This document shows, piece after piece, positions 16,830 to 61,923 of a DNA stretch of 64,000 nucleotides. Numbering within the stretch: the stretch's first letter is position 1; every line of letters starts with the position of its first letter. A model generated the notes under the pieces. The model was not told the origin of the DNA. It saw nothing but the letters and a program-made list of their open reading frames with translations, and searched no databases. This DNA is from Acidobacteriota bacterium (lineage in GTDB: Bacteria > Acidobacteriota > UBA890 > WLXD01). A program made the translations under genes and the position numbers. The DNA lies in the NCBI GenBank assembly GCA_012103255.1, contig WLXD01000005.1:202560-266559 (forward strand). The letters run 5' to 3'.

Positions 16830-19175
16830 CTAGGTTCTGACGCCGATAGCCTGGTACGTCCCTAGAGATAGGAACAACAGGTGTGGCGCCCATGCCGACA
16901 GAGGCGGCGGCAGTTGGTTCGCGTAGCCGAGAGCCTGGAAGACGCCGAACGCGATCCAGTAGGCGGCTACGAGTGCGACTGCGACGGCCACGCCCGTAAG
17001 CGTGCCGTGGCGGCCCATTCGGAATGCGAATGGAAGGCCGACCACGGTCATGACAAACACGATGGCCGGCGTGGCGATCTTCTGATGAAAGTCGACCAGC
17101 GCTCGGTGGGTTTCGTAGCCCTGCCGCTCGAGCAATTGAATGTGTCGACGCAGATCGAGCAGGCGCATCTGTTCAGGTAGCAGCTCGTTCTCGCGGAAAT
17201 ATTCCGGGTCGCGTTCCAGGTGCCCCATGCGGGCGAAACTGAACTCCTCGAGCGGTGACGGCTTGACCCGGTCGCCTTCACGGACGAAGAAGCGTCGCCA
17301 GCCGTCGCGAGCCTCCCAGGTGCCCTCGCGCCACTCGGCGATATCAGCGAACTCCATCCGAGCCATCGAGTTCTCGTCGCCAAGATAGAAGACCCGCAGA
17401 CCCAGGAACTGCGAGCTCGACTCCACGAATTCGTCGAAGTGGTAGACCACGTTGCCCTCGGCGAACACCCAGTTCTGCGACTGCAGCAGAATGACTGTGT
17501 CCGACGGGTCCATTGCTTCCTCGACCACCTTGGCTTGCTCAGCCGTGTACGGCAGCACGTACTCCTGGAGGGCGTACTGCCCCGCGGTGAGCAGGAGTGC
17601 CGGGACAAAGATCGGGACCATCAGTCGATAGAGGCTCACCCCGCCTGCCATGGCGGCCACGACCTCGCCGTGCTTCGCCATGAGACTGAAGACGGCCAAC
17701 ACCGTAACGACCGCAGCCATCGGCGTGATGTCGAAGACGATCTCCCACACGTAGTAGCTCAAGAAGGTGGGGATCAAGCCGGGATTGGTTACGTAGGACG
17801 CCTTGTCGATCCAGGTGCCCATGATGAACAGAACGATGAAGGCCGAGAACGTGAGCCCGTAGATGCTCAAGTAGTTGCGCATCACGAGCCTGTCGAGCGT
17901 CCGCGGGAAGGACGCACCGGTGTGGCTGGAGCGGAGCCGCACGGAACGGTGCAGAACACGCTTCGAGTACCAAGCGCGCAGGCCGTCCGCTGCCTGGAGC
18001 CAGATGGGCTCGATACGCCGCCATATGCCGAAGTCGACTTCGCGACTCTTCTTCCAGAGCAGCACGAGGGCTGCGATGGCCAGCACGACGTTGCCAGCCC
18101 AGATTCCCACGATTGGTGAGATCTGCCCCAGATCAGCTTGTTGTTCGCCGTTCTGCGCGAAGAAGTAGTACACGGCGATCACCACGATGCCGATAGCGAA
18201 CCCGCTTGCCGTTGTCTGTCTCTGAGTTGAGATGCCCAGCGGAAGCGCGATGAGGCCCATCACGATGCAGGCGAAGGGAAGCGCAAACTTCTTCTGGACC
18301 TCGACCCGCAGATCCCACGCCGGCTCGCCATTCGAATGACGCGCCGCGATCGCTGTGCGTAGTTCCGAGAGGTTCATCGAGCGAACGTCCTTGCCGAGCT
18401 CTCCGATGAAGGTGTTCTCTTCAGACCACACGAGTTCGCTGCGCGACTCGAACTCGGTCAGTGTCACGTCCGCCGGGTCGGCTCGCGATGCAATGACGAC
18501 CCCGTTGACCATCTCGATGTATGTCCGACGGTTCTCGGCATCGATCCGGGGGTAGGCGCGCTCTGCGCGGAGAATCGTCGGCGGATTCGAGTCCGTTCGC
18601 GCCGTAAACACACCGCGCCACTCGCTACCTTGATTGACGATGTCCTCGACGTAGAGGACAAGGTTCGGGAAGTCGTTGTTGAAGACGCGAGGTTTGACCT
18701 CGTTGGACAGCGCTCCGCCCTCGGCGATCTGTTCCCACTGAATCTCCACGAGTGATTGATTGCCCCAAGGCATCATCACGGTGTAGATCCAGCTTGTCGC
18801 TCCCCACAGTAGAGCGGACGCGATGAGTACCGGCGGCAGTAGGTGAAGCAGGCTGACCCCCGCGGCGCGAAGCGCGACGATTTCGAAGTCCGCCGACATT
18901 CTGCCGAAGGCGATCAACGAACCGACGAGGAGCCCCATTGGGATGGTCAGAACCATGATGTGAGGCAGGCTGTAGACGATGACCCACAACACGCTACTGA
19001 GCTCGGCGCCGTACTCGATCCACAGCTGCGAGACGCGGAGTAGCGCGCGCATCAGAAAGAGGAACGTGAAGACACAGAACGCCAGCAGGGTGGGGGTCAG
19101 GAGTTCGAGGATCACGTGGCGCCACAGGATCAATGCGGGACGCGCTCTGAGGATGGACGCCGCGGCTGCGCTCAT
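16830..19175 (-). CDS. fused LptF-LptG-type LPS export permease (two YjgP/YjgQ domains in one polypeptide)
   Basis: The start is moved to ATG 19175 (MSAAAASILRARPALILWRHVILELL...). The first half carries a YjgP/YjgQ-like TM segment (RHVILELLTPTLLAFCVFTFLFLMRALLRVSQLW). The second half (RLVMRNYLSIYGLTFSAFIVLFIMGTWID...) repeats the same domain. The ATG overlaps the stop of the upstream GT2 gene (ATGA). Confidence 0.75.
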   Translation of the reverse strand: MSAAAASILRARPALILWRHVILELLTPTLLAFCVFTFLFLMRALLRVSQLWIEYGAELSSVLWVIVYSLPHIMVLTIPMGLLVGSLIAFGRMSADFEIVALRAAGVSLLHLLPPVLIASALLWGATSWIYTVMMPWGNQSLVEIQWEQIAEGGALSNEVKPRVFNNDFPNLVLYVEDIVNQGSEWRGVFTARTDSNPPTILRAERAYPRIDAENRRTYIEMVNGVVIASRADPADVTLTEFESRSELVWSEENTFIGELGKDVRSMNLSELRTAIAARHSNGEPAWDLRVEVQKKFALPFACIVMGLIALPLGISTQRQTTASGFAIGIVVIAVYYFFAQNGEQQADLGQISPIVGIWAGNVVLAIAALVLLWKKSREVDFGIWRRIEPIWLQAADGLRAWYSKRVLHRSVRLRSSHTGASFPRTLDRLVMRNYLSIYGLTFSAFIVLFIMGTWIDKASYVTNPGLIPTFLSYYVWEIVFDITPMAAVVTVLAVFSLMAKHGEVVAAMAGGVSLYRLMVPIFVPALLLTAGQYALQEYVLPYTAEQAKVVEEAMDPSDTVILLQSQNWVFAEGNVVYHFDEFVESSSQFLGLRVFYLGDENSMARMEFADIAEWREGTWEARDGWRRFFVREGDRVKPSPLEEFSFARMGHLERDPEYFRENELLPEQMRLLDLRRHIQLLERQGYETHRALVDFHQKIATPAIVFVMTVVGLPFAFRMGRHGTLTGVAVAVALVAAYWIAFGVFQALGYANQLPPPLSAWAPHLLFLSLGTYQAIGVRT

Positions 19176-19855
19176 CGGGATGCCTCGTAGAAGCGCGCGA
19201 GAGTTAGTGGGCTCATGCCGAGCGCGTGGGCCGCGCGCAGGAGCCACATCTTCAGGATGGTCCGGACCGGGCCACATTGCTCCCAGCGGCGAGCCGACGT
19301 GACGACGGTGTCGTTGAGCCGCGCGACCCTGCCGGTGCGTCGCAGTTGAGCGCTAAACTGGACGTCTTCGAAGAGCGGCAACGGCGGGAACCCGCCGAGG
19401 TGGTCGAAAACGTCTCGCCGGACGAACATGGCCTGATCGCCTGTCGCAATCCCGGTCAGCCGACTACGGATCGTGATCATGCGGCCGATAAGGCCGAGAA
19501 GAGGGCGAACCGAGTTGAGTCGCAGCCGAAAGAATCCGCCTGAGGCACCATCATCAATGGCGGCACGGATGCTCTTGAGAGCCCCTGCGGGCAGTTCGGT
19601 GTCGGCGTGAAGAAACAGAATGATCTCTCCGTCGCCCAAGGCGGCACCCGCGTTCATCTGACTGGCGCGGCCTCGAGGAGCTGCGGCGTAGGGGAGTCCT
19701 GAGCTGCGCAGGGCGCTAGCGGTTCCATCCGTGCTCATGCCGTCGACGATCACGACGTCGGTCGCGGCCGCGGCATGCATGTCACGGAGTCGATCGAGCA
19801 AGAGCGGCAGAGCGCTCGACTCGTTGTGTACGGGGACCACGACGTTTACGCGCAA
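19172..19855 (-). CDS. family-2 glycosyltransferase (GT-A fold)
   Basis: Only the C-terminal ~230 aa of the 540-aa ORF-track entry is protein-like: RVNVVVPVHNESSALPLLLDRL ... DVVIVDGMSTDGT ... ILFLHADTELP. The upstream part is antisense to rnz. The start is tentatively TTG 19855; an alternative is ATG 19969. The stop TGA overlaps the LptFG start. Confidence 0.6.
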   Translation of the reverse strand: MRVNVVVPVHNESSALPLLLDRLRDMHAAAATDVVIVDGMSTDGTASALRSSGLPYAAAPRGRASQMNAGAALGDGEIILFLHADTELPAGALKSIRAAIDDGASGGFFRLRLNSVRPLLGLIGRMITIRSRLTGIATGDQAMFVRRDVFDHLGGFPPLPLFEDVQFSAQLRRTGRVARLNDTVVTSARRWEQCGPVRTILKMWLLRAAHALGMSPLTLARFYEASR

Positions 19856-34311: not shown

Positions 34312-35161
34312 ATGCGCTTCGGGTCCTACACCGTTCGGGCCTTGCTGGACTCGCGGTTTGCCCTCGATGGGGGCTCGATGTTCGGCGTGGTTCCGCGCGC
34401 GCTCTGGCAGAAAGTGGTTGAGCCGGACTCTCAAAACCGTATCCCGCTCGTGTCACGTCTCCTGTATGTCGAGGGCGAGGGACGTCGCATCCTCGTGGAC
34501 ACAGGACTGGGTGACAAGTGGGACGACAAGCGTCGGGCGATGTTCGCGATCGACCTTGTCGAGGGCGGCGCAGCGGCGCAGCTCCGCAACTTTGGCGTGG
34601 AGCCTGACGACATCACGGACGTGGTTCTAACCCACCTTGCACTTCGATCACGCCGCCGGGACCACGTTCACGGATGCTGATGGCGAGCTGGCCCTGCGCT
34701 ACCCGAATGCGGTGCACCATGTGCAGTCCGCGCATTGGGACTGGGCGTGGAGTCCGACTCTGAAAGACGCGGGATCCTTCCGGCGTGAGGACTTCGGCAA
34801 GCTAGCCAGCAGTCCCAAGCTATGCCTCGTTGATGGCGAAGTCGAAATTGCGCCGAGCATCAAAGTGTTCCCGCTGGATGGTCATACCCGCGCGATGCAG
34901 GCAGTTCGCATCGGATCTCCGGGTGCCGATCTGCTCTTCACCGCGGATTTGGTGCCAACGGCCGCCCATCTGCGCTGGCCATACATCATGGGGTTCGATA
35001 ACGAGCCGCTCACTACCCTGGCGGAGAAGCAGCATTGGCTGAGCCAGGCGGCGCTTGGCGGTACCGTCCTCGTGTTCGAACACGACCCCGTGATCGCGGC
35101 AGCTCGGCTCGTCGAGAACGATCGTGGCGGCGTGCAGGTCGGCGAACAGGTGAGCCTGTAG
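34312..35161 (+). CDS. MBL-fold metallo-hydrolase (AHL-lactonase-like); single-nucleotide frameshift at ~34639
   Basis: ORF 34312..34680 ends ...DVVLTHLALRSRR. ORF 34637..35161 begins MHFDHAAGTT. Removing one G at ~34639 restores ...VVLTHLHFDHAAG... (the HxHxDH motif). Confidence 0.7.
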
Positions 35162-35177
35162 TGGCCGGCGGCTCAGG

Positions 35178-36320
35178 CTAGTTGCTCGAGCCTAGTTCTG
35201 GCACAACGTCGAAGGGCAAGCGGTTGCCAATCGCTGCAGCGGCCGGACCACGTTCTGCACCTGGCTGGTGGAAGAAATCCAGGTAGAGCTGGAGATCTGA
35301 CACTGCTCTGAGGCCGTGGCTTGCCTGTGCTCCGAAGAAGATCGCATTCGGGTACGCCGGCTTCACCAGGAAACAGTTCGCCCCGTGTCCTGCGGGCCGG
35401 AGGCCGAGAACCTGACGCCATCGCTCGAGAGTCTCTTCGAGATTTCCGTTGAGATCCGGCACGTATACGTGAAGATCAAAGGGTAATCTTCGCTGGCCGC
35501 GCCGCAGTCGCATCGCATGCACAGCCGACTGCAGAGTCAGCGCGTAGCGCGACGCGAGGTCAGAATTGACCGTGCGAAGCTTCTGGAGCACGAGTTCGGG
35601 CTCCCCTTCCTGAAGCTGGAACGGGAAGATCTCGTTCACTTCGAAGGCGTACTCACCCAGCCAGTCGCTGACCAGCCGCTTCGGCTGAACGAGACGCGAA
35701 CCACCCCCGGCCTTGCGTTCGATGTAGCCGTCCGCGTGCATCTGCTGCAGGATTTGCGACACCCAGCCCAGGCTGAGACTGCCGCGTTCCGCGATCTCAC
35801 GAGTTGTCAGCCAATCGCCCGGGCGCTCCAACAGAACGCGTAGCGGAATGGTGGCCTTGTCGTGGAACAGCGTCCGGATCTGTTTGCGCTCGCTGAATCG
35901 GTTCCGGTTGCCGCTGATCTGCACGAAGACCGCGTTGAAGCGCAGAAACGCGTTGCCACAGCAATCGAGGTAGCCGATGTTCGCTTCGCGTGCGAGCCGT
36001 GCGCCAGCCGCCCCCATGTGGGGCACGACCAGGAGTACGGAAACGCCCGGCGTCAGCGCGAGCCGGCGTAGACGCGGCAGGAGGCCGCGTACCTGACGAG
36101 GTTCTCCGGACATCGCGGGAAGACAGAGCAGCCGTCGCACTGCACCCGTGGGGCTGAGGAGCTCGACCTCCACCATCGCCGGGTCTTCCGGCGCCGTGCC
36201 AACACGCACCCCCGTCACGAGGATCTCCGGGACGATGTCGCGCCAATGAGTCAGGAAGTGGGCGCGGACCTCCGATGCGGTCCTCATGAGGGGAACGTCG
36301 ATGGCGCGTCGTTCGCGCAT
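35178..36320 (-). CDS. hypothetical protein with a central wHTH; family not recognised
   Basis: The central LTTREIAERGSLSLGWVSQILQQMHADGYIERK is a wHTH recognition-helix pattern. An N-terminal ~170-aa domain (…LLVVPHMGAAGARLAREANIGYLDCCGNAF…) and a C-terminal ~150-aa domain match nothing I can name. Confidence 0.45.
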   Translation of the reverse strand: MRERRAIDVPLMRTASEVRAHFLTHWRDIVPEILVTGVRVGTAPEDPAMVEVELLSPTGAVRRLLCLPAMSGEPRQVRGLLPRLRRLALTPGVSVLLVVPHMGAAGARLAREANIGYLDCCGNAFLRFNAVFVQISGNRNRFSERKQIRTLFHDKATIPLRVLLERPGDWLTTREIAERGSLSLGWVSQILQQMHADGYIERKAGGGSRLVQPKRLVSDWLGEYAFEVNEIFPFQLQEGEPELVLQKLRTVNSDLASRYALTLQSAVHAMRLRRGQRRLPFDLHVYVPDLNGNLEETLERWRQVLGLRPAGHGANCFLVKPAYPNAIFFGAQASHGLRAVSDLQLYLDFFHQPGAERGPAAAAIGNRLPFDVVPELGSSN

Positions 36321-36416
36321 GGGTTGAGGTGTGTTCGACGTGTCCGCATCCGCGAGTTTATAGCAAACCCGCGGGTGTCCCGCGAGCCGGTATCTGAGGT
36401 GAGGCGCGGATACTTC

Positions 36417-36776
36417 CTATCGTTGAGCCGCCGGCTCCACATCGAAGCGGTACGACACGACATCCTGAGCCCTTGCGTAGTCTAGCGAGCCCTCATGTGA
36501 GACCCGAAGAGTTGCCCCGGCAGGTACGCGCTCCTGGGTGGTATCGGTGTGCACCACACGGTCATCGTCGTCGAGCAGTACAGCGGAGACGTCGACGGTG
36601 ACCTCGGTGTCCGCGCTGTTGATGACTTCCGCGAACCAGCTGAAGTAGGCATTTTCGTTGTCGGCGTCAGGCCATTCGAAATTGCTCTTTCCTAGCGTCA
36701 GCTCGGCGGACGCACTGGCCGCGATGGCCAGACACAGGCAAAGGGCTGTCGCGATGCTGCGAATCAGAATGCGCAA
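36417..36776 (-). CDS. small secreted hypothetical protein (signal peptide)
   Basis: MRILIRSIATALCLCLAIAASASA is a typical Sec signal peptide. The mature part is acidic and about 95 aa. Confidence 0.45.
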   Translation of the reverse strand: MRILIRSIATALCLCLAIAASASAELTLGKSNFEWPDADNENAYFSWFAEVINSADTEVTVDVSAVLLDDDDRVVHTDTTQERVPAGATLRVSHEGSLDYARAQDVVSYRFDVEPAAQR

Positions 36777-56137: not shown

Positions 56138-56716
56138 CTAGCGGGCTGCCGAAACCAGAAAGGGCTGCCAGGTGGGGTCCGGATCCTCCGTCGTTCTCAG
56201 CAGCGCGGACGGATGCCACTGTGGTGCCTTCGGTGTCTTGAGTAGTGGCATGCCGGCCTCGTCCGGCATGCGGTCGGCCTTGCGCGAGTTGCAACGGAAA
56301 CAAGAGACCACGATGTTCGACCAGTTGGTCGGACCGCCCCGTGATCGCGGCAAAACGTGATCAAGTGTGAGCTCCTCGGCGGCGCGCGTTGTACCGCAAT
56401 ACTGGCAGCGATGGCGGTCGCGGAGGTACACGTTCGATCGGGTGAACTTCACCCGTGGCCGCGGCATCCGGTCATACTCGAGTAGCTGAATTACCCGCGG
56501 TATCCGCACGGGACCAGCGGTCGTGAGCACGCTGTCGAGCGGGTCCGTGGCGTCCGTGCTGCGGCCGCACCACCCTTCCCACGAGTACACCGCGAAGTCC
56601 TTGCCCACGGCCATGCCACGGCCGACATAGACAAGAGACACGGCTCGTCGACCGCGGACGATGTTGACCGCCTGCCAGAGGCGGTTCAAGACAAGGACGC
56701 TCCGATTCAGCCCCAT
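56138..56716 (-). CDS. HNH endonuclease
   Basis: The HNH core is CQYCG ... LTLDHVLPRSRGGPTNWSNIVVSCFRCNSRK (the zinc-finger Cys pairs and the H-N-H/N residues). Confidence 0.8.
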   Translation of the reverse strand: MGLNRSVLVLNRLWQAVNIVRGRRAVSLVYVGRGMAVGKDFAVYSWEGWCGRSTDATDPLDSVLTTAGPVRIPRVIQLLEYDRMPRPRVKFTRSNVYLRDRHRCQYCGTTRAAEELTLDHVLPRSRGGPTNWSNIVVSCFRCNSRKADRMPDEAGMPLLKTPKAPQWHPSALLRTTEDPDPTWQPFLVSAAR

Positions 56717-56793: not shown

Positions 56794-57999
56794 TCAGTCG
56801 TCCCGGCCGTATCGAGCCATGATCTCGCGCACTCGTTCCAGGTCGAGCGCTTCGACGGCGCCTCGCGGGCCTTCGTCGGTGTTCGCCGCGAACAGGCTGT
56901 TGTAGATCGCCTCTTCCGTGGCTTCGATTGCCGCGAGGAATACGGGAGAGAGGGAACCCGTCGGCAACGGGGACGTGCGCGGATAGGTCCGCCCGAGAGT
57001 TCCCTGCCGCAATCCCAAGTTCGTGGAGAACGCGATCACGTAGTCGCCACTTCCGTTGGACCCTGCCGCGCCGGTCCTGGCCATTCCCATGAAGCCACGC
57101 AGTGCCATCCGCTCCAGGTTCGCAGCATCGATCGGGGCATCCGTGGCGACGATGATCATGCATGAGCCGTCGCGCGATTCGGTGGTGGGAGCATCCCCTG
57201 CCCTATCGGTGGGCTCGCGATCGACATCCGAGGCCTCGATGCGCGATCGCAGGTAGTAGCGCCCGAGTTCCTGTCCCACGGGGACGCCGTCGATACTCAG
57301 GATGCCGCCAAAATTGGTTTGCACCAGAACGCCCACCGTCCAGCCTCCCAGGCTGTCGGGAAGTCGTCGAGACGACGTGCCGATTCCGCCCTTGAATCCG
57401 AAAGCGGTGGTTCCGGTACCGGCTCCCACACTTCCCTCGGGCACGGCGCCCGACGCGGCATTCATGATCGCGTGCTCGACGTGCCCGGCGTCGATGGGTC
57501 GTGCCCGTATGTCGCTCAGAAAGCCGTCGTTGGTTTCACCGACGACAGGATTGATCGAACGCACGTCCTCATTGCCAGGAAGTTCGAGCATGTAGCTGAG
57601 TAGCGCGTCGGCAGCCCGCGGCACGCTCAAGGTTCCCGTCAGAATGATCGGCGTCTCCAGGGTTCCCAGTTCCTGTACCTGGCTGATCCCGGTGAGCTTG
57701 CCGAATCCGTTGGCGACGAAGATCGCGGCCGGTGGTCTGTCGGCAAACAGGTTGCCGTGGTGCGGCAAGATCGCCGTGACGCCGGTGTTGATGCGCGTGC
57801 CATCGCGCACTGTCGCGTGACCCACGCGAACGCCCTCCACATCGGTAATCGCGTTGTTGGGGCCGGGCGAAAGTATCCCGGGCTCGACGCCATGGTCGCG
57901 AGCGCGTGCCCGCCCCATTTCCTGGGCGGCGCTTGACGTCACCGTTCCGGCCAGCAGCACCGAGACGGCCACCGCGCGTCGTCCGGGCAGGAGCCTCAC
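56794..57999 (-). CDS. S58 (DmpA/P1) family aminopeptidase/amidase, secreted
   Basis: There is a signal peptide. The block ...GHATVRDGTRINTGVTAIL ... and the self-processing Ser region GSVGAGTGTTAFGFKGGIG match DmpA-like proteins. The start is GTG, overlapping the upstream stop (GTGA). Confidence 0.8.
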   Translation of the reverse strand: MRLLPGRRAVAVSVLLAGTVTSSAAQEMGRARARDHGVEPGILSPGPNNAITDVEGVRVGHATVRDGTRINTGVTAILPHHGNLFADRPPAAIFVANGFGKLTGISQVQELGTLETPIILTGTLSVPRAADALLSYMLELPGNEDVRSINPVVGETNDGFLSDIRARPIDAGHVEHAIMNAASGAVPEGSVGAGTGTTAFGFKGGIGTSSRRLPDSLGGWTVGVLVQTNFGGILSIDGVPVGQELGRYYLRSRIEASDVDREPTDRAGDAPTTESRDGSCMIIVATDAPIDAANLERMALRGFMGMARTGAAGSNGSGDYVIAFSTNLGLRQGTLGRTYPRTSPLPTGSLSPVFLAAIEATEEAIYNSLFAANTDEGPRGAVEALDLERVREIMARYGRDD

Positions 58000-58622
58000 G
58001 AACCGAGGTCGCCCAGGCTGAACACGGAGCGTTCGAGCTCGTCGACAGAAACCGTGGGCATGCCGCGAGCAGTGCGCTCCTCTTCTACGGCCCTCATGGT
58101 CTGCAGAAGATCCGCGAGAAGACGCTGACCTGTCGGATCGACGGCCGCCTGGCGTGGCGTCATGCCTTGCAACCGTTGCTGGGGAGCGTCGGCCCAGCGC
58201 GAGTAGAGTGCGGAGTGGAACTCGGCCAGCACCTGCGCCTCATGTTCCTTCGAGAAATTCTCCGGACGATCCGCGGTACGGATGCGCGGGCGCGGGACAA
58301 ATCGACCGAGATCATCGCCCACTGCGACGCGAGCCTCTGCGACCGGTTGCAGGAGATCGTCGAGTTGCCGGTACGCCCGTCCGACCGCGCCCGGGTTGGG
58401 GCCCTCCAGGACGAGCCGACTGCCGCGAGTTCGGATGAGGAAACCCTGTGCGAAGGCGTCGGGTGGATACCACACGTACCAACGCCGTTCCGCATCGCTC
58501 AGGAGTTCCTGGGCGCCGGCGTCAAGCAGTCGGTCGCGCGTCCCGTCCGCCTCGCGGATCTCGAAGAAGGCTTTGCAAAAACGAAGGTTGGCGCGCTGTG
58601 GTCGCGTCCCGGTTGAGTCCAT
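57996..58622 (-). CDS. hypothetical protein
   Basis: It is a 208-aa ORF with protein-like composition. It is translationally coupled to the downstream S58 peptidase. No motif was recognised. Confidence 0.4.
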   Translation of the reverse strand: MDSTGTRPQRANLRFCKAFFEIREADGTRDRLLDAGAQELLSDAERRWYVWYPPDAFAQGFLIRTRGSRLVLEGPNPGAVGRAYRQLDDLLQPVAEARVAVGDDLGRFVPRPRIRTADRPENFSKEHEAQVLAEFHSALYSRWADAPQQRLQGMTPRQAAVDPTGQRLLADLLQTMRAVEEERTARGMPTVSVDELERSVFSLGDLGS

Positions 58623-58719
58623 GCCGCTGATTATAGGGACTTCGTGGCGGCGCGCGGTTCTCGCTGGACCGGCAATACGTTAATATATGATTTACGTATT
58701 GAATTCGTATTTGATTCAT

Positions 58720-58736
58720 CCACAGGTTATGCACAC
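58720..58736. repeat. 17-mer CCACAGGTTATGCACAC, copy 1 of a direct repeat in the divergent intergenic region
   Basis: It lies in a locally AT-rich stretch (58680-58740). A second copy is at 58831-58847. Confidence 0.6.
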
Positions 58737-58830
58737 CCTGTGGCACACGCATTCGATGGCACCGGAAGCCTGAATCGGCCCGCAATGCCGGGACCATCCA
58801 TGCACGCTTGCGTTGCGGCGCGCCGCGGCG

Positions 58831-58847
58831 CCACAGGTTATCCACAC
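58831..58847. repeat. 17-mer CCACAGGTTATCCACAC, copy 2 (1 mismatch)
   Basis: It lies 111 bp from copy 1. The 12-bp palindrome GCGGCGCGCCGC (58815-58826) lies between the copies, just upstream of the likely start of the 58867 gene. Confidence 0.6.
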
Positions 58848-58866
58848 ACGAGGTCATAACTCCGGA

Positions 58867-59493
58867 ATGGACGAGCACGGCGGACAAGGCGCTCTTGGCG
58901 ATCCCACCGCGGTGGATCCTGACGCAATGACGAGTCACGAACTGGAGGCGCTGGCCACGCAGCACATCGAGGACGCCGTGCGATGGATCAGCGCCATTGA
59001 TCGCGAGGTCCCGGCGCCCTACCGGGCGACAGTGCTCGAATCGCTTCTGGCGCTCGCGCGCGACTCGGAACTGCCCGAGCGATCGGAGGGCGCAACGCGG
59101 GGCACTCCCCGGGAGACTCGTCCCCCCACTGAGAGCGTCACCTCGTTGCAGGACGATCTCGGCATCGACCTCGAGCGTTACGCCCATGCGCTCGCTGGGC
59201 CTGGTCGCCTACGGTCCAAAGCGCTGATTACTCTCGATATTGTCGCCACGCAGCTCGGCGTCGACTGGATGACGCCAGGCGAGATAGAAAGGTTCCTGGT
59301 CGATAGAGCGCGCGCGACGCATGTCTATCGCACGAACGTTAGCAACGCCCTCCGCGGCGCGCGCGGCCTGGTGGATCGCAGGAGGCGAGGACGAGCGTAC
59401 GAATACCGGCTAACCGAAGCGGGGCGAGTCGTGGTCGATCGGGAGGTAGCGATTCTAGGGCCCGGTCGGCCAGACGGCAGCTCGGTCCGGTAG
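58867..59493 (+). CDS. hypothetical protein with a C-terminal wHTH-like region
   Basis: The start is tentatively ATG 58867 (MDEHGG...); the ORF track starts at 58813 and 58927 is an alternative. The C-terminus LITLDIVATQLGVDWMTPGEIERFLVDRARATHVYRTNVSNALRGARGLVDRRRRGRAYEYRLTEAG resembles a MarR/PadR-like winged helix. Confidence 0.4.
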   Translation: MDEHGGQGALGDPTAVDPDAMTSHELEALATQHIEDAVRWISAIDREVPAPYRATVLESLLALARDSELPERSEGATRGTPRETRPPTESVTSLQDDLGIDLERYAHALAGPGRLRSKALITLDIVATQLGVDWMTPGEIERFLVDRARATHVYRTNVSNALRGARGLVDRRRRGRAYEYRLTEAGRVVVDREVAILGPGRPDGSSVR

Positions 59494-59585
59494 CTCGGCC
59501 CAGCCGTGCGTGCAGACCGCGTGCGCACTTTCTGAGGAAACTTGAAGTGCTTTGCCAGCTATTGTCGGCGCGCCGACAATCCGAG

Positions 59586-60491
59586 CTAGTCGACTTCCGG
59601 CAGTCCGTTGGACCGCAGTTCCCTGATCGCTTCGAGCAGCGAGCGCTCGACGTCGGCCAGCGAGACCTCATCCGCGTTCAGGTAGACCGTCACCGTGATG
59701 CCGGCCTTCGAGCGGTACGTGACACGCCGAGGCGGGACGGGGGCGGTCCGAGTCGGCTCGGCTGCTTCCGGCTCGGCGTCTGACGCCTCTTCGATCTCGA
59801 TCACGTCGGCGACTTCCGGTGCCACGCCTCGTCGGAGGTTGCGTAGATCGTTCCGGGTCAGGCCTTCGTCGACAACGCGCTGTGCGAGGGCCAGCATGGC
59901 CTCTTCCCCGTCCGTCTTGCAAAGCTCCAGGATCACCGATTTGGACCGCACTCCGCCTTCCTGCAGCAGCGCGCGTACAGCGGCCGGAACGATCGTCAGC
60001 CGGAGCGATTCCGTCACGCTGGTGCGGCTCTTGCTCACACGCTCGGCGACTTCCTCGTGCGTGAATCCGTACTGATCGATCAGGGCCTGGAGTCCTTCGG
60101 ACTCTTCGAACGGCGACAGGTCCTGTCGCTGAAGGTTCTCGATAAGCGCGACTTCGAGGGCGCGTTGATCATCGATGTCCATGACGATGCATGGGACCTC
60201 GGTGAGCTCGGCTGCCCTTGACGCGCGGAAGCGCCGTTCGCCGGAGATGATTTCGTAGCCGGTTTCCGACCGGCGCACCAGCAGCGGTTCCAGGACACCG
60301 ACTCGCTGGATCGATGCGACGAGTTCCTCGAGGCCATCGAAGATGCTTCGTGGCTGGGCCGGGTTCGGCCTGAGCTGATCGATCGAGAGCATCTGGCCGA
60401 TGGCATTCGTCTGGTTGGCGGCCAGCTCTTCGACGAAGTGGGAGTCGTGGCGCATCCGCGTGGTCGTCGGTAGTCCTCGTCGGTTAGACAC
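59586..60491 (-). CDS. parB: chromosome partitioning protein ParB/Spo0J
   Basis: The ParB box is ...LVRRSETGYEIISGERRFRAS... The HTH is ...LQALIDQYGFTHEEVAERVSKSRTSVTESLRL... The start overlaps the parA stop. Confidence 0.9.
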   Translation of the reverse strand: MSNRRGLPTTTRMRHDSHFVEELAANQTNAIGQMLSIDQLRPNPAQPRSIFDGLEELVASIQRVGVLEPLLVRRSETGYEIISGERRFRASRAAELTEVPCIVMDIDDQRALEVALIENLQRQDLSPFEESEGLQALIDQYGFTHEEVAERVSKSRTSVTESLRLTIVPAAVRALLQEGGVRSKSVILELCKTDGEEAMLALAQRVVDEGLTRNDLRNLRRGVAPEVADVIEIEEASDAEPEAAEPTRTAPVPPRRVTYRSKAGITVTVYLNADEVSLADVERSLLEAIRELRSNGLPEVD

Positions 60492-61260
60492 GCGCCAGTA
60501 CCTCCTCGCCTAGTTCTGCATATTGAGCGGCGCCCGACGAAGCGGGCGCGTGGGTGAAGATCGCCTCCTTGTAGGCGGGGCTTTCCTCGAGTCTCACGTT
60601 GCGGGTGATGATGGTCTTGAAGACCTTGTCGCCGAATACCTCTCGGACCTGCGCTACGACGTCACGTCCGAGGACGGTGCGGCGGTCGAGCATCGTCACC
60701 AAGACGCCGAGTAGCTCCAAATCCTGGTTCACGCGCTGACGAACCCGTTGGATGGTATCGAGCAGATCGTCGGTGCCCTCAAGAGCGAGGTAGGACGACT
60801 GGATCGGGACGATGACGTGCGTTGAGGCGACAAGCGCGTTGATCGTCAGGAGCCCGAGAGTCGGCGGCGTGTCGATCACGACGAAGTCGTAGTCGCCGGC
60901 CACCACCGCGAGTTTGTCGCGCAGCCGGTAGTGACCGTCGAACTCACCCGATAGCTTGATCTCCAGTTTCGCGAGCCCGATGCGGGCGGGGGCAACGAGG
61001 AGTCCTTCGACACTGCCCTGGTACGTAACGTCCGCGAGGCCTACCTGGGCCTCGATGAGGGCGTCGTAGATCGATTGGTCGATCTCGGCGGCCTCGAGAA
61101 ACGAGATGCTCGAATGCGCTTGCGGATCGAGATCGATGAGAAGAGTTCGCTTGCCCTTTCGCGCCAGGGCGGCCGCCAGGTTCACTGCCGTCGTGGTCTT
61201 GCCCACCCCGCCTTTCTGATTGGTGACCGCGATAACGGGACCGCGGGTGGCAGGGTTCAT
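60484..61260 (-). CDS. parA: chromosome partitioning ATPase ParA/Soj
   Basis: The deviant Walker A is IAVTNQKGGVGKTTTAVNLAAALA. Confidence 0.9.
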   Translation of the reverse strand: MNPATRGPVIAVTNQKGGVGKTTTAVNLAAALARKGKRTLLIDLDPQAHSSISFLEAAEIDQSIYDALIEAQVGLADVTYQGSVEGLLVAPARIGLAKLEIKLSGEFDGHYRLRDKLAVVAGDYDFVVIDTPPTLGLLTINALVASTHVIVPIQSSYLALEGTDDLLDTIQRVRQRVNQDLELLGVLVTMLDRRTVLGRDVVAQVREVFGDKVFKTIITRNVRLEESPAYKEAIFTHAPASSGAAQYAELGEEVLARV

Positions 61261-61440
61261 CGACGGCGCATCCTGGCTGACGGCGTGAAACGAAGCCGCG
61301 TCGGGGGTTCACAGGCCGCTGGTGCAGTCTGCTCCCATGTCGCCAGCCTGCCCCAGCTCGCAGCGGCCAATAAACCACTGTCAGGCCGGCGCTGCAACCT
61401 TGTTCCTGGCTTTATTTGAAAACATAGACTTCATGGATAT

Positions 61441-61923
61441 TTACATCTCATACTTCGAGAAATCTTCAGGGTCAAGATTCTCGAACCATCGCTTCAAACG
61501 TTCAGCCTCGGAAGACGAGTCGGTGCCGTTCTCGGCTAGCTCGAGAACGGACGTTTCCACGAACACGGGGGCGTCGGCTCTGAGCGCCAGGGCGAGTGCA
61601 TCGCTGGGCCTTGCGTCGATGGACAACTGTTCGCCCTTGCGCTCCAGATCGACCCGAGCGTAGTAAGTGTTGTCGCGTAGGTCGGAGATGAGGATCCGAC
61701 GGATTTCGGCGCCGAGTTGCCCCACGACGTCGTGTAGAAGATCGTGCGTCATCGGGCGCGGCGGTGCGATGTCTTCGAGTTTTAGCGCGATGGCGTTGGC
61801 TTCGTAGACTCCCACCCAGATCGGCAGCACGTGCTCGCCGCTATCGTCCTTGAGTATCACGATCGGCATATTCGTCACCGGGTCGACCATCAGGCCGCTG
61901 ATCTGCATGCGAACCTGCATTTC
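61441..61923 (-). CDS. bifunctional nuclease (BFN) domain protein (DUF151)
   Basis: The start is moved to ATG 61923 (MQVRMQISGLMVDPVTNMPIVILKDDSGEHVLPIWVGVYEANAIAL...). This is the DUF151 pattern. The later ...ARPSDALALALRADAPVFV block is also present. Confidence 0.7.
   Translation of the reverse strand, partial: EMQVRMQISGLMVDPVTNMPIVILKDDSGEHVLPIWVGVYEANAIALKLEDIAPPRPMTHDLLHDVVGQLGAEIRRILISDLRDNTYYARVDLERKGEQLSIDARPSDALALALRADAPVFVETSVLELAENGTDSSSEAERLKRWFENLDPEDFSKYEM

What the first reader, a model, noticed from the sequence alone, without database searches (positions are those of the whole stretch)
58623..58866. Divergent AT-rich intergenic region with a duplicated 17-mer and a 12-bp GC palindrome next to parAB
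Between the start of the hypothetical gene 57996..58622 (minus strand) and the gene encoding a C-terminal winged helix at 58867 (plus strand), there is a locally AT-rich stretch (58680-58720: TTAATATATGATTTACGTATTGAATTCGTATTTGATTC, itself containing short direct repeats). It is followed by two copies of CCACAGGTTAT(G/C)CACAC, 111 bp apart, at 58720-58736 and 58831-58847. Copy 1 forms CACAGG-N10-CCTGTG with the following sequence. The perfect palindrome GCGGCGCGCCGC (58815-58826) lies between the copies. This looks like a pair of operator sites, plausibly for the adjacent wHTH-containing protein, controlling two divergent promoters.
Basis: seen in the sequence. Interest (0 to 1): 0.5.

Follow-up and report, generated by a model that had tools for sequence, protein, structure and literature searches.

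The report
Conserved DnaA-box cluster beside parAB
The duplicated 17-mer is a pair of binding sites for the replication initiator DnaA, part of a conserved DnaA-box and AT-rich module next to the partition genes of an uncultured Acidobacteriota clade; it looks like a replication origin but most likely acts as a DnaA-controlled regulatory region.

Summary
In detail: every coordinate and sequence is correct, and the two 17-mers are the only copies in 64 kb. The interpretation needs changing. Each 17-mer is the tail of a weak DnaA box, 2 bp, then a strong DnaA box (TTATGCACA at 58727, TTATCCACA at 58838). These are the only TTATNCACA matches in the window. A third box (TCATCCACA, 58716) sits 2 bp upstream of the first.

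The same layout occurs in 12 related Acidobacteriota loci: three 11-bp AT-rich repeats, a tandem box pair, a roughly 100-bp variable spacer, then a consensus box. It always lies between the same two clade-specific genes beside parBA. The GC palindrome and CACAGG-N10-CCTGTG are not conserved.

The AT block is the lowest-GC 40-mer of the window, so the module resembles oriC. Several tests argue against an active origin:
- No GC-skew or gene-orientation switch occurs at the site in any genome.
- The boxes point away from the AT block, opposite to the BUS (basal unwinding system) arrangement, and there are no DnaA-trios.
- No dnaA or dnaN lies nearby.
- Predicted origins of other Acidobacteria lie at genome coordinates 1.6-2.8 kb, probably beside dnaA.

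Best reading (about 0.5): a non-origin DnaA-box cluster that regulates the wHTH gene. oriC remains possible (about 0.2).

The parts
57996..58622 (-). Left flanking gene (LEFT208, 208 aa), a clade-specific hypothetical protein and first gene of a minus-strand run (S58 peptidase, HNH nuclease and others)
   Evidence: ORF. No Pfam or NCBIfam family. 37 homologues, all from the same clade, one carrying PF09722 (Xre/MbcA/ParS C-terminal domain). Structure model pLDDT 80 with no informative fold match. Present left of the module in all related loci.
58630..58635 (-). TATAAT on the minus strand, 7 nt upstream of the LEFT208 ATG. Putative -10 element of a leaderless or short-leader transcript.
   Evidence: ATTATA and the CAT start codon are invariant columns in alignment A2 and appear in all 13 loci. 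No -35 element could be found. The promoter role is an inference.
58673..58715 (+). AT-rich block of three 11-bp units (about 58680-58690, 58691-58701, 58702-58712) with a CGTAT core, plus an inverted copy (CAATACG) at 58673-58679
   Evidence: Lowest-GC 40-mer of the window and of every related 13-20 kb locus. Invariant columns TAT..T...C.TAT..A...CGTAT. Unit structure in 13 loci. Repeats D4 and I3. The double CGTAT motif occurs nowhere else in the window.
58716..58724 (+). DnaA box 1, TCATCCACA (1 mismatch), upstream member of the proximal tandem pair
   Evidence: A box with at most 2 mismatches sits at the same position (-11) in 11 of 12 related loci (L006 has TAATTTACA there).
58727..58735 (+). 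DnaA box 2, TTATGCACA (fits TTATNCACA), 2 bp after box 1. Core of 17-mer copy 1.
   Evidence: TTTTCCACA or TTTTGCACA at this position in all 12 related loci. TTTTCCACA is the standard DnaA-box motif listed for the acidobacterium Koribacter.
58736..58826 (.). Variable GC-rich spacer, including CCTGTG (58737-58742) and the palindrome GCGGCGCGCCGC (58815-58826)
   Evidence: Not alignable between loci. The box 2 to box 3 distance is 99-124 bp, clustering near 99, 110 and 121. The palindromes are absent from relatives.
58827..58835 (+). Weak half-box GGCGCCACA (3' half CCACA kept), 2 bp before box 3. Gives the CCACAGG part of 17-mer copy 2.
   Evidence: (C/G)CACAG precedes the distal box in group A loci and CCAC(G/C)G in group B. 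DnaA binding here is an inference.
58838..58846 (+). DnaA box 3, perfect consensus TTATCCACA. Core of 17-mer copy 2. It lies 20 nt upstream of the ATG at 58867.
   Evidence: Perfect in 10 of 12 related loci and 1-2 mismatches in the other two. It lies 27-29 nt upstream of the annotated start codon in the closest relatives.
58867..59493 (+). wHTH gene (208 aa from 58867; public gene callers start at 58927, 188 aa). N-terminal helical hairpin, disordered linker, C-terminal winged helix.
   Evidence: (invariant YRTNxSN ... VDRRRRGRxYEYR). 29 homologues, all in this clade.
59563..59578 (.). Conserved perfect palindrome TGTCGGCGCGCCGACA between the wHTH and parB stop codons. Context only, not part of the DnaA module. 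Candidate clade-specific parS, wHTH operator or hairpin.
   Evidence: No canonical parS was found. ParB has altered DNA-reading segments.
59586..61260 (-). parB (59586-60491) and parA (60484-61260), chromosomal type, convergent with the wHTH gene
   Evidence: Pfam ParB_N + HTH_ParB, and AAA_31/CbiA/ParA. Best solved relatives are Spo0J/ParB.

Best explanation
The duplicated 17-mers are two DnaA-binding sites. Each consists of two co-oriented 9-mers separated by 2 bp: box 1 + box 2 at 58716-58735, and a half-box + consensus box 3 at 58827-58846. Together with the adjacent three-unit AT-rich repeat block, they form a conserved DnaA-binding module in the divergent regulatory region between a clade-specific operon (LEFT208-S58...) and a clade-specific wHTH gene next to parBA.

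I think the module is most likely a non-origin DnaA-box cluster through which DnaA acts as a transcription factor.

Proposed mechanism:
1. DnaA binds the consensus box 3. Sequence match and conservation are shown; binding is inferred.
2. Box 3 lies 20-29 nt upstream of the wHTH start codon in the window and its closest relatives. Bound DnaA would therefore occupy the core promoter or early leader and repress or time wHTH expression. The position is shown; the effect is inferred.
3. The 2-bp-spaced proximal pair binds DnaA cooperatively, head to tail. It stabilises occupancy of box 3 through a loop of about 110 bp (10-11 helical turns). The geometry is shown; looping is inferred.
4. The AT block on the 5' side of the pair has two possible roles. 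It could be a low-affinity extension of the DnaA oligomer, on the same side as the low-affinity arrays next to R4 in E. coli (my recollection). Or it could be the operator of another factor, possibly the wHTH protein itself. This step is inferred.

The net effect would couple a clade-specific DNA-binding regulator encoded beside the partition genes to the replication-initiation status of the cell.
For: DnaA-box identity:
- These are the only two TTATNCACA matches in 64 kb.
- Three boxes with at most 1 mismatch lie within 131 bp, against 0 of 200 simulations.
- This is the only such cluster in 79 kb around parAB.

Conservation:
- In 12 related loci the tandem pair has an exact 2-bp gap, and a distal box in the same orientation lies 99-124 bp away. 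The spacer is unalignable.
- The box variant TTTTCCACA is the DnaA-box motif listed for the acidobacterium Koribacter.
- A 2-bp gap between co-oriented boxes is the optimum for cooperative DnaA dimer formation (T. maritima EMSA, PMC10316083).
- Box 3 lies 20-29 nt from the start codon in the window, L003, L004, L012 and L016.

Against an origin, and so for a regulatory role:
- No GC-skew sign change occurs at the module in the window or in 9 related genomes.
- Coding-strand GC3 skew of the same-strand genes left and right of it is equal or differs in the wrong direction in all 10 genomes.
- The plus strand behaves as the leading strand to the left. Housekeeping genes are on +, with replication-associated GC3 skew about +0.085 at 1-35 kb and about 0 at 35-64 kb; it is never negative.
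- 8 of 10 genes to the right are on the minus strand.
- There is no dnaA within -66/+12 kb in this genome or within 10 kb either side in relatives.
- In Koribacter, Granulicella and Chloracidobacterium the predicted unwinding sites lie at genome coordinates 1.6-2.8 kb, probably beside dnaA, and have the BUS arrangement.
- Here the boxes point away from the AT block, and no conserved trio run follows any box.

Precedents:
- In P. aeruginosa, DnaA boxes in the origin-like oriCII regulate gidAB-parAB (PMC13438810).
- B. subtilis has oriC-proximal DnaA-box clusters outside oriC (PMC3245932, abstract seen).
Against: - No promoter could be located by consensus on either strand (and manual inspection), so the position of box 3 relative to the transcription start is unknown.
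- In the more distant group B loci, box 3 is about 65-92 nt from the start codon (L005 ORF). The 'box over the core promoter' geometry is therefore not universal.
- An extreme, sequence-conserved AT-rich block immediately next to a cooperative box pair is more typical of an origin unwinding element than of an ordinary DnaA-regulated promoter.
- The layout (pair next to an AT block plus one distal box about 110 bp away) mirrors the minimal B. subtilis incC origin, except for box polarity.
- The skew tests rest on 10-60 kb of flanking DNA, and the related loci are syntenic, so they are not independent samples.
- The location of dnaA and of the global skew minimum in these genomes could not be determined.
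Confidence: 0.5

Rival explanations
1. It is the chromosomal replication origin (oriC) of this clade, unlinked from dnaA. DnaA bound to the three boxes would oligomerise and open the adjacent AT-rich repeat block (a DNA unwinding element), where the helicase is loaded.
For: - There are at least 3 DnaA boxes with at most 1 mismatch, which meets the Ori-Finder box-cluster criterion, and none are clustered elsewhere in 79 kb.
- The AT block is the lowest-GC 40-mer of the window and of every related locus.
- It has 11-bp repeat units in phase with the boxes.
- The pair has the 2-bp cooperative spacing.
- A tandem pair plus a distal box at least about 100 bp away, with hints of helical phasing, recalls minimal B. 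subtilis incC.
- It is conserved across the clade.
- It lies beside parAB and a possible parS-like palindrome.
Against: - There is no skew switch at the site in 10 genomes, and the GC3 skew difference left versus right is zero or has the wrong sign.
- The 58 kb to the left behaves as plus-strand-leading.
- Genes to the right are mostly head-on to a rightward fork.
- The boxes point away from the AT block. This polarity abolished B. subtilis incC activity when engineered and is opposite to the BUS layout.
- There are no DnaA-trios.
- No dnaA, dnaN, rpmH, gidA or hemE indicator gene is adjacent.
- Other Acidobacteria have predicted origins at genome coordinates 1.6-2.8 kb, probably beside dnaA.
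- Only three good boxes are present.
Confidence: 0.22
2. It is a DnaA-handling locus rather than a promoter element. It would be a chromosomal site that titrates DnaA or changes its nucleotide state, in the manner of E. coli datA or DARS or the B. subtilis DnaA-box clusters. The AT block would bind a bending nucleoid protein.
For: - A small cluster of high- and medium-affinity boxes sits next to an AT-rich, sequence-conserved segment, and is conserved without being an origin.
- B. subtilis has such clusters near oriC and the par genes (PMC3245932, abstract seen).
Against: - No IHF consensus was seen in the AT block (manual inspection).
- From my recollection, datA and DARS have different box numbers and orientations (not tested here).
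- Box 3 sits right at the start of the wHTH gene, which suggests a gene-specific role.
- With three boxes the titration capacity would be small.
Confidence: 0.1
3. It is DnaA binding at the partition locus, as at the Caulobacter centromere. DnaA bound next to parBA and a clade-specific parS would help start chromosome segregation, with the wHTH protein as a partition accessory (AspA-like).
For: - A conserved 16-bp palindrome with parS-like size and TGT...ACA ends lies 717 bp from box 3, at the 3' end of parB, in all loci covering that gap.
- There is no canonical parS in the window or loci.
- ParB recognition segments differ from those of solved parS binders.
- The wHTH model superposes well on the pNOB8 centromere-binding protein AspA (rmsd 2.2-2.5 A over about 85 residues, but E about 0.01).
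- That DnaA binds the Caulobacter centromere is my recollection and was not checked here.
Against: - All links are circumstantial.
- The fold match is generic winged helix.
- The palindrome could be a terminator hairpin or an operator.
- The boxes are not next to the palindrome.
Confidence: 0.08
4. One reading: the two 17-mers are operators of the adjacent wHTH protein.
For: - The sites are adjacent to a gene encoding a conserved wHTH protein with an invariant recognition helix and wing.
- They are duplicated in a divergent intergenic region.
Against: - The conserved part of each copy is exactly a DnaA box and varies as DnaA boxes do (TTATCCACA, TTTTCCACA, TTATGCACA).
- The copies are direct repeats without dyad symmetry, whereas MarR/ArsR/PadR-type dimers usually read inverted repeats (established knowledge).
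- The inverted repeat seen in the window is not conserved.
Confidence: 0.04

Closest known systems
Pseudomonas aeruginosa oriCII (DnaA-box region upstream of gidA that regulates gidAB-parAB; PMC13438810)
   Same: It is an origin-like cluster of DnaA boxes at the partition-gene locus, away from the active dnaA-linked origin. There, DnaA acts as a transcription factor.
   Different: - Here the boxes do not precede the parAB operon. They lie between a wHTH gene (convergent with parB) and an unrelated operon.
- There are fewer boxes (3 good ones against 5-9).
- There are no gidA or gidB genes.
- An extreme AT-rich repeat block is attached.
- Regulation here is inferred, not shown.
Minimal Bacillus subtilis oriC incC / basal unwinding system (BUS) (PMC6669920, PMC8287927)
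   Same: - Co-oriented tandem DnaA boxes with a gap of at most 3 bp lie directly beside an AT-rich segment.
- One further box lies more than 100 bp away, and its spacing hints at helical phasing.
   Different: - Polarity is reversed. In the BUS, 5'-TTATCCACA-3' points towards the DnaA-trios and the AT-rich DNA. Here it points away.
- No (NAN) runs of 3 or more follow any box in any of 12 loci in a conserved way.
- Reversing box 6/7 inactivated incC.
- There is no skew switch at the site.
Bacillus subtilis oriC-proximal DnaA-box clusters; E. coli datA and DARS
   Same: They are non-origin chromosomal clusters of DnaA boxes that bind DnaA and regulate neighbouring genes and/or initiation (PMC3245932, abstract seen).
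   Different: - Box number and arrangement differ.
- No function has been tested here.
- The module here has a fixed, clade-wide architecture with an AT-rich repeat block.
Predicted oriC regions of other Acidobacteria (Koribacter, Granulicella, Chloracidobacterium; supplementary BUS table of PMC8287927)
   Same: They use the same box family (TTTTCCACA/TTATCCACA) and tandem boxes.
   Different: Those lie at genome coordinates 1.6-2.8 kb, probably beside dnaA (my inference), and carry GAT-type trios on the side the boxes point to. The module here has neither feature.

Membership tests
DnaA box (binding site of DnaA domain IV) | 9-mer matching TTATNCACA (or the lineage variant TTTTCCACA) with at most 1 mismatch | tested here: met
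   58727 TTATGCACA and 58838 TTATCCACA are exact matches. 58716 TCATCCACA has 1 mismatch.
DnaA box (binding site of DnaA domain IV) | Conserved as a box in orthologous positions while the surrounding DNA diverges | tested here: met
   12 related loci were compared. Box 2 and box 3 are present in all 12 and box 1 in 11, with the same order and orientation.
DnaA box (binding site of DnaA domain IV) | Bound by DnaA | not testable with these tools
   This needs EMSA, footprinting or ChIP with an acidobacterial DnaA.
Chromosomal origin oriC (Ori-Finder 2022 criteria) | Cluster of at least 3 DnaA boxes with at most 1 mismatch | tested here: met
   Three boxes lie in 131 bp.
Chromosomal origin oriC (Ori-Finder 2022 criteria) | [quoted passage not shown] | tested here: not met
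   The neighbours are two hypothetical genes, parB, parA and an S58 peptidase. No DnaA signature was found in the window or in any locus. parA and parB count only for secondary chromosomes.
Chromosomal origin oriC (Ori-Finder 2022 criteria) | Minimum of cumulative GC skew / switch of strand composition at the site | tested here: not met
   The cumulative skew rises and then stays flat across 79 kb, with no minimum at 58.7 kb. There is no left/right switch in 10 genomes. Only local flanks were available, not whole chromosomes.
Chromosomal origin oriC (Ori-Finder 2022 criteria) | AT-rich DNA unwinding element next to the boxes | tested here: inconclusive
   An extreme AT-rich block is present but on the side the boxes point away from. 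Unwinding was not tested.
Basal unwinding system (BUS) | Box or tandem boxes followed within 16 bp, on the 3' side of 5'-TTATCCACA-3', by at least 3 DnaA-trios (3'-NAN-5') and then AT-rich DNA | tested here: not met
   A rule-based scan of 12 loci found no conserved trio run after any box. Only two sporadic 3-trio runs follow the module's own boxes (L009 and L010); a third run in L005 follows a 2-mismatch match over the ATTATA element. The AT block lies 5' of the boxes. Orientation was checked against the paper's own table.
DnaA-regulated promoter / non-origin DnaA-box cluster | DnaA boxes within or next to the promoter of a gene, outside the origin | tested here: inconclusive
   Box 3 is 20-29 nt from the wHTH start codon in group A and about 65-92 nt away in group B. 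No promoter or transcription start could be identified.
DnaA-regulated promoter / non-origin DnaA-box cluster | Transcription of the neighbouring gene responds to DnaA | not testable with these tools
   This needs reporter fusions or RNA-seq with DnaA depletion or box mutants.
   The conserved core is a generic DnaA box. The CACAGG/CCTGTG dyad is not conserved.
Canonical parS centromere | TGTTNCACGTGAAACA-type 16-bp palindrome | tested here: not met
   There is no match with up to 3 mismatches in the window or loci. A different conserved palindrome lies at 59563-59578.

The most novel reading that the evidence does not exclude
The module is the real chromosomal origin of an order-level Acidobacteriota clade. 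It would be unlinked from dnaA, flanked by two clade-specific genes and a non-canonical parS. Its DnaA boxes would point away from the unwinding element, so it would open by a mechanism other than the BUS. For example, a double-strand-bound DnaA oligomer could extend 5' from the box pair over the 11-bp AT repeats. The wHTH protein would act as an origin- or centromere-binding accessory factor.
Probability: 0.2. Interest if true: 0.65.

Novelty: new member of a known kind. Interest (0 to 1): 0.4.

Why it matters
- It replaces an anonymous 'duplicated 17-mer' with a specific, testable assignment: DnaA sites with cooperative 2-bp spacing. It also shows the sites are under selection across a clade of uncultured Acidobacteriota for which nothing is known about replication control.
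- If the regulatory reading is right, the clade-specific wHTH gene beside parBA is a candidate DnaA-controlled cell-cycle regulator. It would be a handle on how replication and segregation are coupled in this phylum.
- If the origin reading is right, it would be a natural origin with box polarity that is non-functional in B. subtilis. That would inform models of origin opening.
- It is a caution for automated origin prediction. A DnaA-box cluster, an AT-rich block and par genes can occur together without a skew switch.

Tried and rejected
- **Locating dnaA.** A DnaA signature search in six frames of the window and of all fetched loci found nothing. Extending the window 8.5 kb left and 6.5 kb right also found nothing. 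The position of dnaA and of the global skew minimum therefore remains unknown.
- **Promoter search.** The sigma-70 consensus scan found nothing in the intergenic region. Manual searches for -35/-10 pairs in the AT block, around box 3 and upstream of the conserved TATAAT gave no convincing -35.
- **Known RNA.** No Rfam family matches the region or four related loci.
- **Module elsewhere.** A 20-base degenerate pattern for the AT block plus box pair, scanned over the metagenome collection, returned only three more orthologous loci and two chance hits in 40% GC contigs. The module is not a dispersed element and is not found next to other genes.
- **Helical phasing.** The Rayleigh test is nominally significant over all loci (p about 0.006 at period 11). 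It is not significant when near-identical relatives are collapsed (p about 0.07-0.13), so I treat phasing as suggestive only.
- **Function of LEFT208.** Pfam, NCBIfam, a structure model and a PDB fold search gave nothing usable.
- **IHF site and DnaA-trios in the AT block.** None was convincing (manual inspection).
- **Inverted skew polarity.** I considered that this clade might have inverted GC-skew polarity, which would turn the skew plateau into an origin signal. I rejected it because it would place about 40 housekeeping genes head-on to replication.
- **Canonical parS.** Absent. I do not count this against an origin, because a conserved non-canonical palindrome sits at parB.
Full report
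**Observation**

The finding is accurate. The window shows CCACAGGTTATGCACAC at 58720-58736 and CCACAGGTTATCCACAC at 58831-58847. It also shows CACAGG-N10-CCTGTG at 58721-58742, the perfect palindrome GCGGCGCGCCGC at 58815-58826, and the AT-rich stretch at 58680-58719. The 17-mer, even with 3 mismatches, occurs only at these two places in 64 kb. The AT stretch has GC 0.20. It is the lowest-GC 40-mer of the window, which has mean 0.63 and sd 0.068.

The genes are as described:
- A 208-aa hypothetical gene on the minus strand ends at 58622.
- A plus-strand gene runs from 58867 (public gene callers use 58927) to 59493.
- parB and parA follow on the minus strand.

**What the 17-mers are**

The core of each copy is a DnaA box. 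TTATGCACA (58727) and TTATCCACA (58838) are the only two TTATNCACA matches in the window (expected 0.24). A third box, TCATCCACA (58716, 1 mismatch), lies exactly 2 bp upstream of the first.

The shared left part of the 17-mer, CCACAGG, is therefore the 3' end of a preceding box plus the 2-bp gap. In copy 2 the preceding 9-mer, GGCGCCACA, keeps only the CCACA half. DnaA explains the whole repeat.

Three boxes within 150 bp were never obtained in 200 dinucleotide-preserving simulations. No other cluster exists in 79 kb around parAB.

**Comparative evidence**

The plus-strand gene product has 29 homologues, all without annotation. A genome scan placed nine related loci in Acidobacteriota MAGs. 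A DNA-pattern scan of metagenomes added three more and found the pattern in no other genomic context.

Gene order is identical in all loci that extend far enough: TusA, NFACT/tRNA-methyltransferase-like, HNH, S58 peptidase, LEFT208, [module], wHTH, ParB, ParA, BFN, MiaB. In every locus the lowest-GC 40-mer of 13-20 kb lies just upstream of the wHTH gene.

Alignment shows islands of conservation in otherwise unalignable DNA:
- The LEFT208 start codon with an invariant ATTATA (TATAAT on the minus strand) 7-8 nt away.
- An AT block made of three 11-bp units with a CGTAT core.
- Two co-oriented boxes with a 2-bp gap (consensus TTATCTACA-GT-TTTTCCACA).
- A variable GC-rich spacer.
- A consensus TTATCCACA.

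The distance from box 2 to box 3 is 99, 107-111 or 120-124 bp. This suggests steps of one helical turn. It is not significant once close relatives are collapsed.

TTTTCCACA is the DnaA-box motif listed for the acidobacterium Koribacter.

**Is it the origin?**

The module has the look of an oriC. It has boxes with the 2-bp spacing that is optimal for cooperative head-to-tail DnaA binding (PMC10316083). An extreme AT-rich repeat block lies alongside. A distal box recalls the minimal B. subtilis incC (PMC6669920). The par genes are next door. I therefore tested origin-defining features.

(a) Strand composition:
- GC skew does not change sign at the module in the window or in nine related loci.
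- All flanking genes except wHTH are on the minus strand. An origin would therefore make the left genes leading-strand and the right genes lagging-strand. Their coding-strand GC3 skew is equal in the window (-0.127 against -0.126). In all other genomes it differs in the opposite direction from that expected.
- Further left, plus-strand and minus-strand genes differ as expected if the plus strand is the leading strand. The replication-associated GC3 skew is about +0.085 at 1-35 kb and about 0 at 35-64 kb. It is never negative.
- That left region is core housekeeping (leuS, holA, murJ, metK, lptFG; further left bamA and the lpx genes), almost all on the plus strand.
- The cumulative skew over 79 kb rises and then flattens, with no minimum at 58.7 kb.

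(b) Gene orientation: eight of ten genes to the right of the module point towards it.

(c) Indicator genes: there is no dnaA or dnaN within -66/+12 kb here, or within 10 kb either side in relatives.

(d) BUS arrangement:
- The supplementary table of Pelliciari et al. writes the trio strand 3' to 5' as AATAGGTGT-spacer-GAT repeats. So 5'-TTATCCACA-3' points towards the trios and the AT-rich DNA.
- Here all three boxes point away from the AT block, towards the wHTH gene.
- A rule-based scan found no conserved trio run after any box in 12 loci.
- Reversing boxes 6/7 inactivated B. subtilis incC.

(e) Other Acidobacteria: the same table places the predicted unwinding sites of Koribacter, Granulicella and Chloracidobacterium at genome coordinates 1.6-2.8 kb, with BUS motifs. 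I take that position to be beside dnaA.

Each test has limits. Flanks are short, the loci are syntenic and so not independent, and the position of dnaA is unknown. Together they make an active origin the less likely reading (about 0.2).

**Most likely function**

A non-origin DnaA-box cluster acting in gene regulation fits best. In the window and its four closest relatives, the consensus box lies 20-29 nt upstream of the wHTH start codon, with only a Shine-Dalgarno-like stretch between. DnaA bound there must overlap the core promoter or the early leader. In the more distant group the distance is about 65-92 nt, so the sign of regulation may differ.

The upstream pair could stabilise binding through a loop of about 110 bp. 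The AT block lies on the 5' side of the pair. From my recollection, that is the side on which E. coli low-affinity arrays extend from R4. The block may be a low-affinity DnaA array or the operator of another protein. Its CGTAT motif occurs as direct and inverted copies, which suits a sequence-specific binder.

No promoter could be identified by consensus, and none of this has been tested experimentally.

The closest precedent is the origin-like oriCII of P. aeruginosa, where DnaA boxes at the gid-par locus regulate transcription (PMC13438810). Another is the oriC-proximal DnaA-box clusters of B. subtilis (PMC3245932, abstract seen).

**The flanking proteins**

The plus-strand gene product models with pLDDT 84 as an N-terminal helical hairpin, a disordered linker and a C-terminal winged helix. 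The best fold matches are MarR, ArsR/SmtB, PadR and the pNOB8 centromere-binding protein AspA. All have weak E-values near 0.005-0.03. Its recognition helix and wing are invariant in the family, so it probably reads a conserved DNA site. Nothing links it to the 17-mers.

LEFT208 is restricted to the same clade. One homologue carries an Xre/MbcA/ParS C-terminal domain hit. The model gave no informative fold match.

**Side finding**

No canonical parS occurs in the window or in any locus. A perfect 16-bp palindrome, TGTCGGCGCGCCGACA (59563-59578), lies between the wHTH and parB stop codons. It is conserved, in 1-2 copies, at that junction in every locus covering it. A flanking motif is inverted between subgroups.

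The ParB here differs from solved parS-binding ParBs in both DNA-reading segments: VAN becomes VTE, and GHARALL becomes KSVILEL. The palindrome may be a clade-specific parS, the wHTH operator or a conserved hairpin. I did not resolve this.

**Verdict**

The module most likely regulates the wHTH gene (0.5). A dnaA-unlinked origin with unusual box polarity is the main alternative (0.2), followed by DnaA titration or conversion (0.1), a centromere-coupled role (0.08) and wHTH operators (0.04). It is a new member of a known kind. Interest is moderate and would rise if whole-chromosome skew or coverage placed the origin here.

Noticed in passing
window 59563-59578 (with flanks 59561-59580): Perfect 16-bp palindrome TGTCGGCGCGCCGACA between the wHTH and parB stop codons. 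It is conserved (0-2 mismatches, 1-2 copies) at the same junction in all related loci that cover it, with a flanking AACCTGAAGTRA motif inverted between subgroups. It could be a clade-specific parS, the wHTH operator or a hairpin terminator.
   Followed up: partly
window 1-64000 and loci L001-L020: No canonical parS (TGTTTCACGTGAAACA, up to 3 mismatches) occurs anywhere, although chromosomal-type parAB is present. The ParB DNA-reading segments differ from solved parS binders (KxRSTVANALRLL becomes KSRTSVTESLRLT; GHARALL becomes KSVILEL).
   Followed up: partly
window 58630-58635 (minus strand): A perfect TATAAT lies 7 nt upstream of the LEFT208 ATG and is invariant in 13 loci. This suggests a leaderless or very short-leader mRNA. 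No -35 element was found.
   Followed up: partly
window 61411-61450: The second lowest-GC 40-mer of the window (GC 0.25) lies about 150 bp upstream of parA, just downstream of the BFN-domain gene. It may be the parAB promoter region.
   Followed up: no
window about 35000-36500: Gene orientation and GC skew change here. From -8.5 kb to 35 kb the genes are mostly plus-strand housekeeping genes with skew +0.03 to +0.10. From 36 to 70 kb the genes are mostly minus-strand and the skew is about 0. In the more distant relatives the par region has a G-rich minus strand, so the block may sit differently relative to replication direction in different genomes.
   Followed up: partly
L005 10478-11547, L006 10466-11558, L011 10526-11550, L012 6864-7869: In several relatives, 0.8-1 kb of poorly conserved DNA with no evident gene separates the wHTH gene from parB (93 bp in the window). 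No Rfam family matches it. It contains the conserved palindrome.
   Followed up: partly
L005 9847-9863 and equivalent positions in L007-L009: A conserved motif (A/G)TGACATTCGTNGAAG lies about 30 nt downstream of the distal DnaA box in the distant subgroup. It is out of frame with the wHTH ORF. It may be a -35 region or a short upstream ORF.
   Followed up: no
window 16830-19277 (minus strand): A single 815-aa ORF has two LptF_LptG matches, so it appears to be a fused LptF-LptG permease.
   Followed up: no
window 56138-56716 (minus strand): An HNH endonuclease gene is conserved in synteny between the S58 peptidase and the NFACT/tRNA-methyltransferase-like gene in all related loci, which is unusual for a nuclease of this type.
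   Followed up: no
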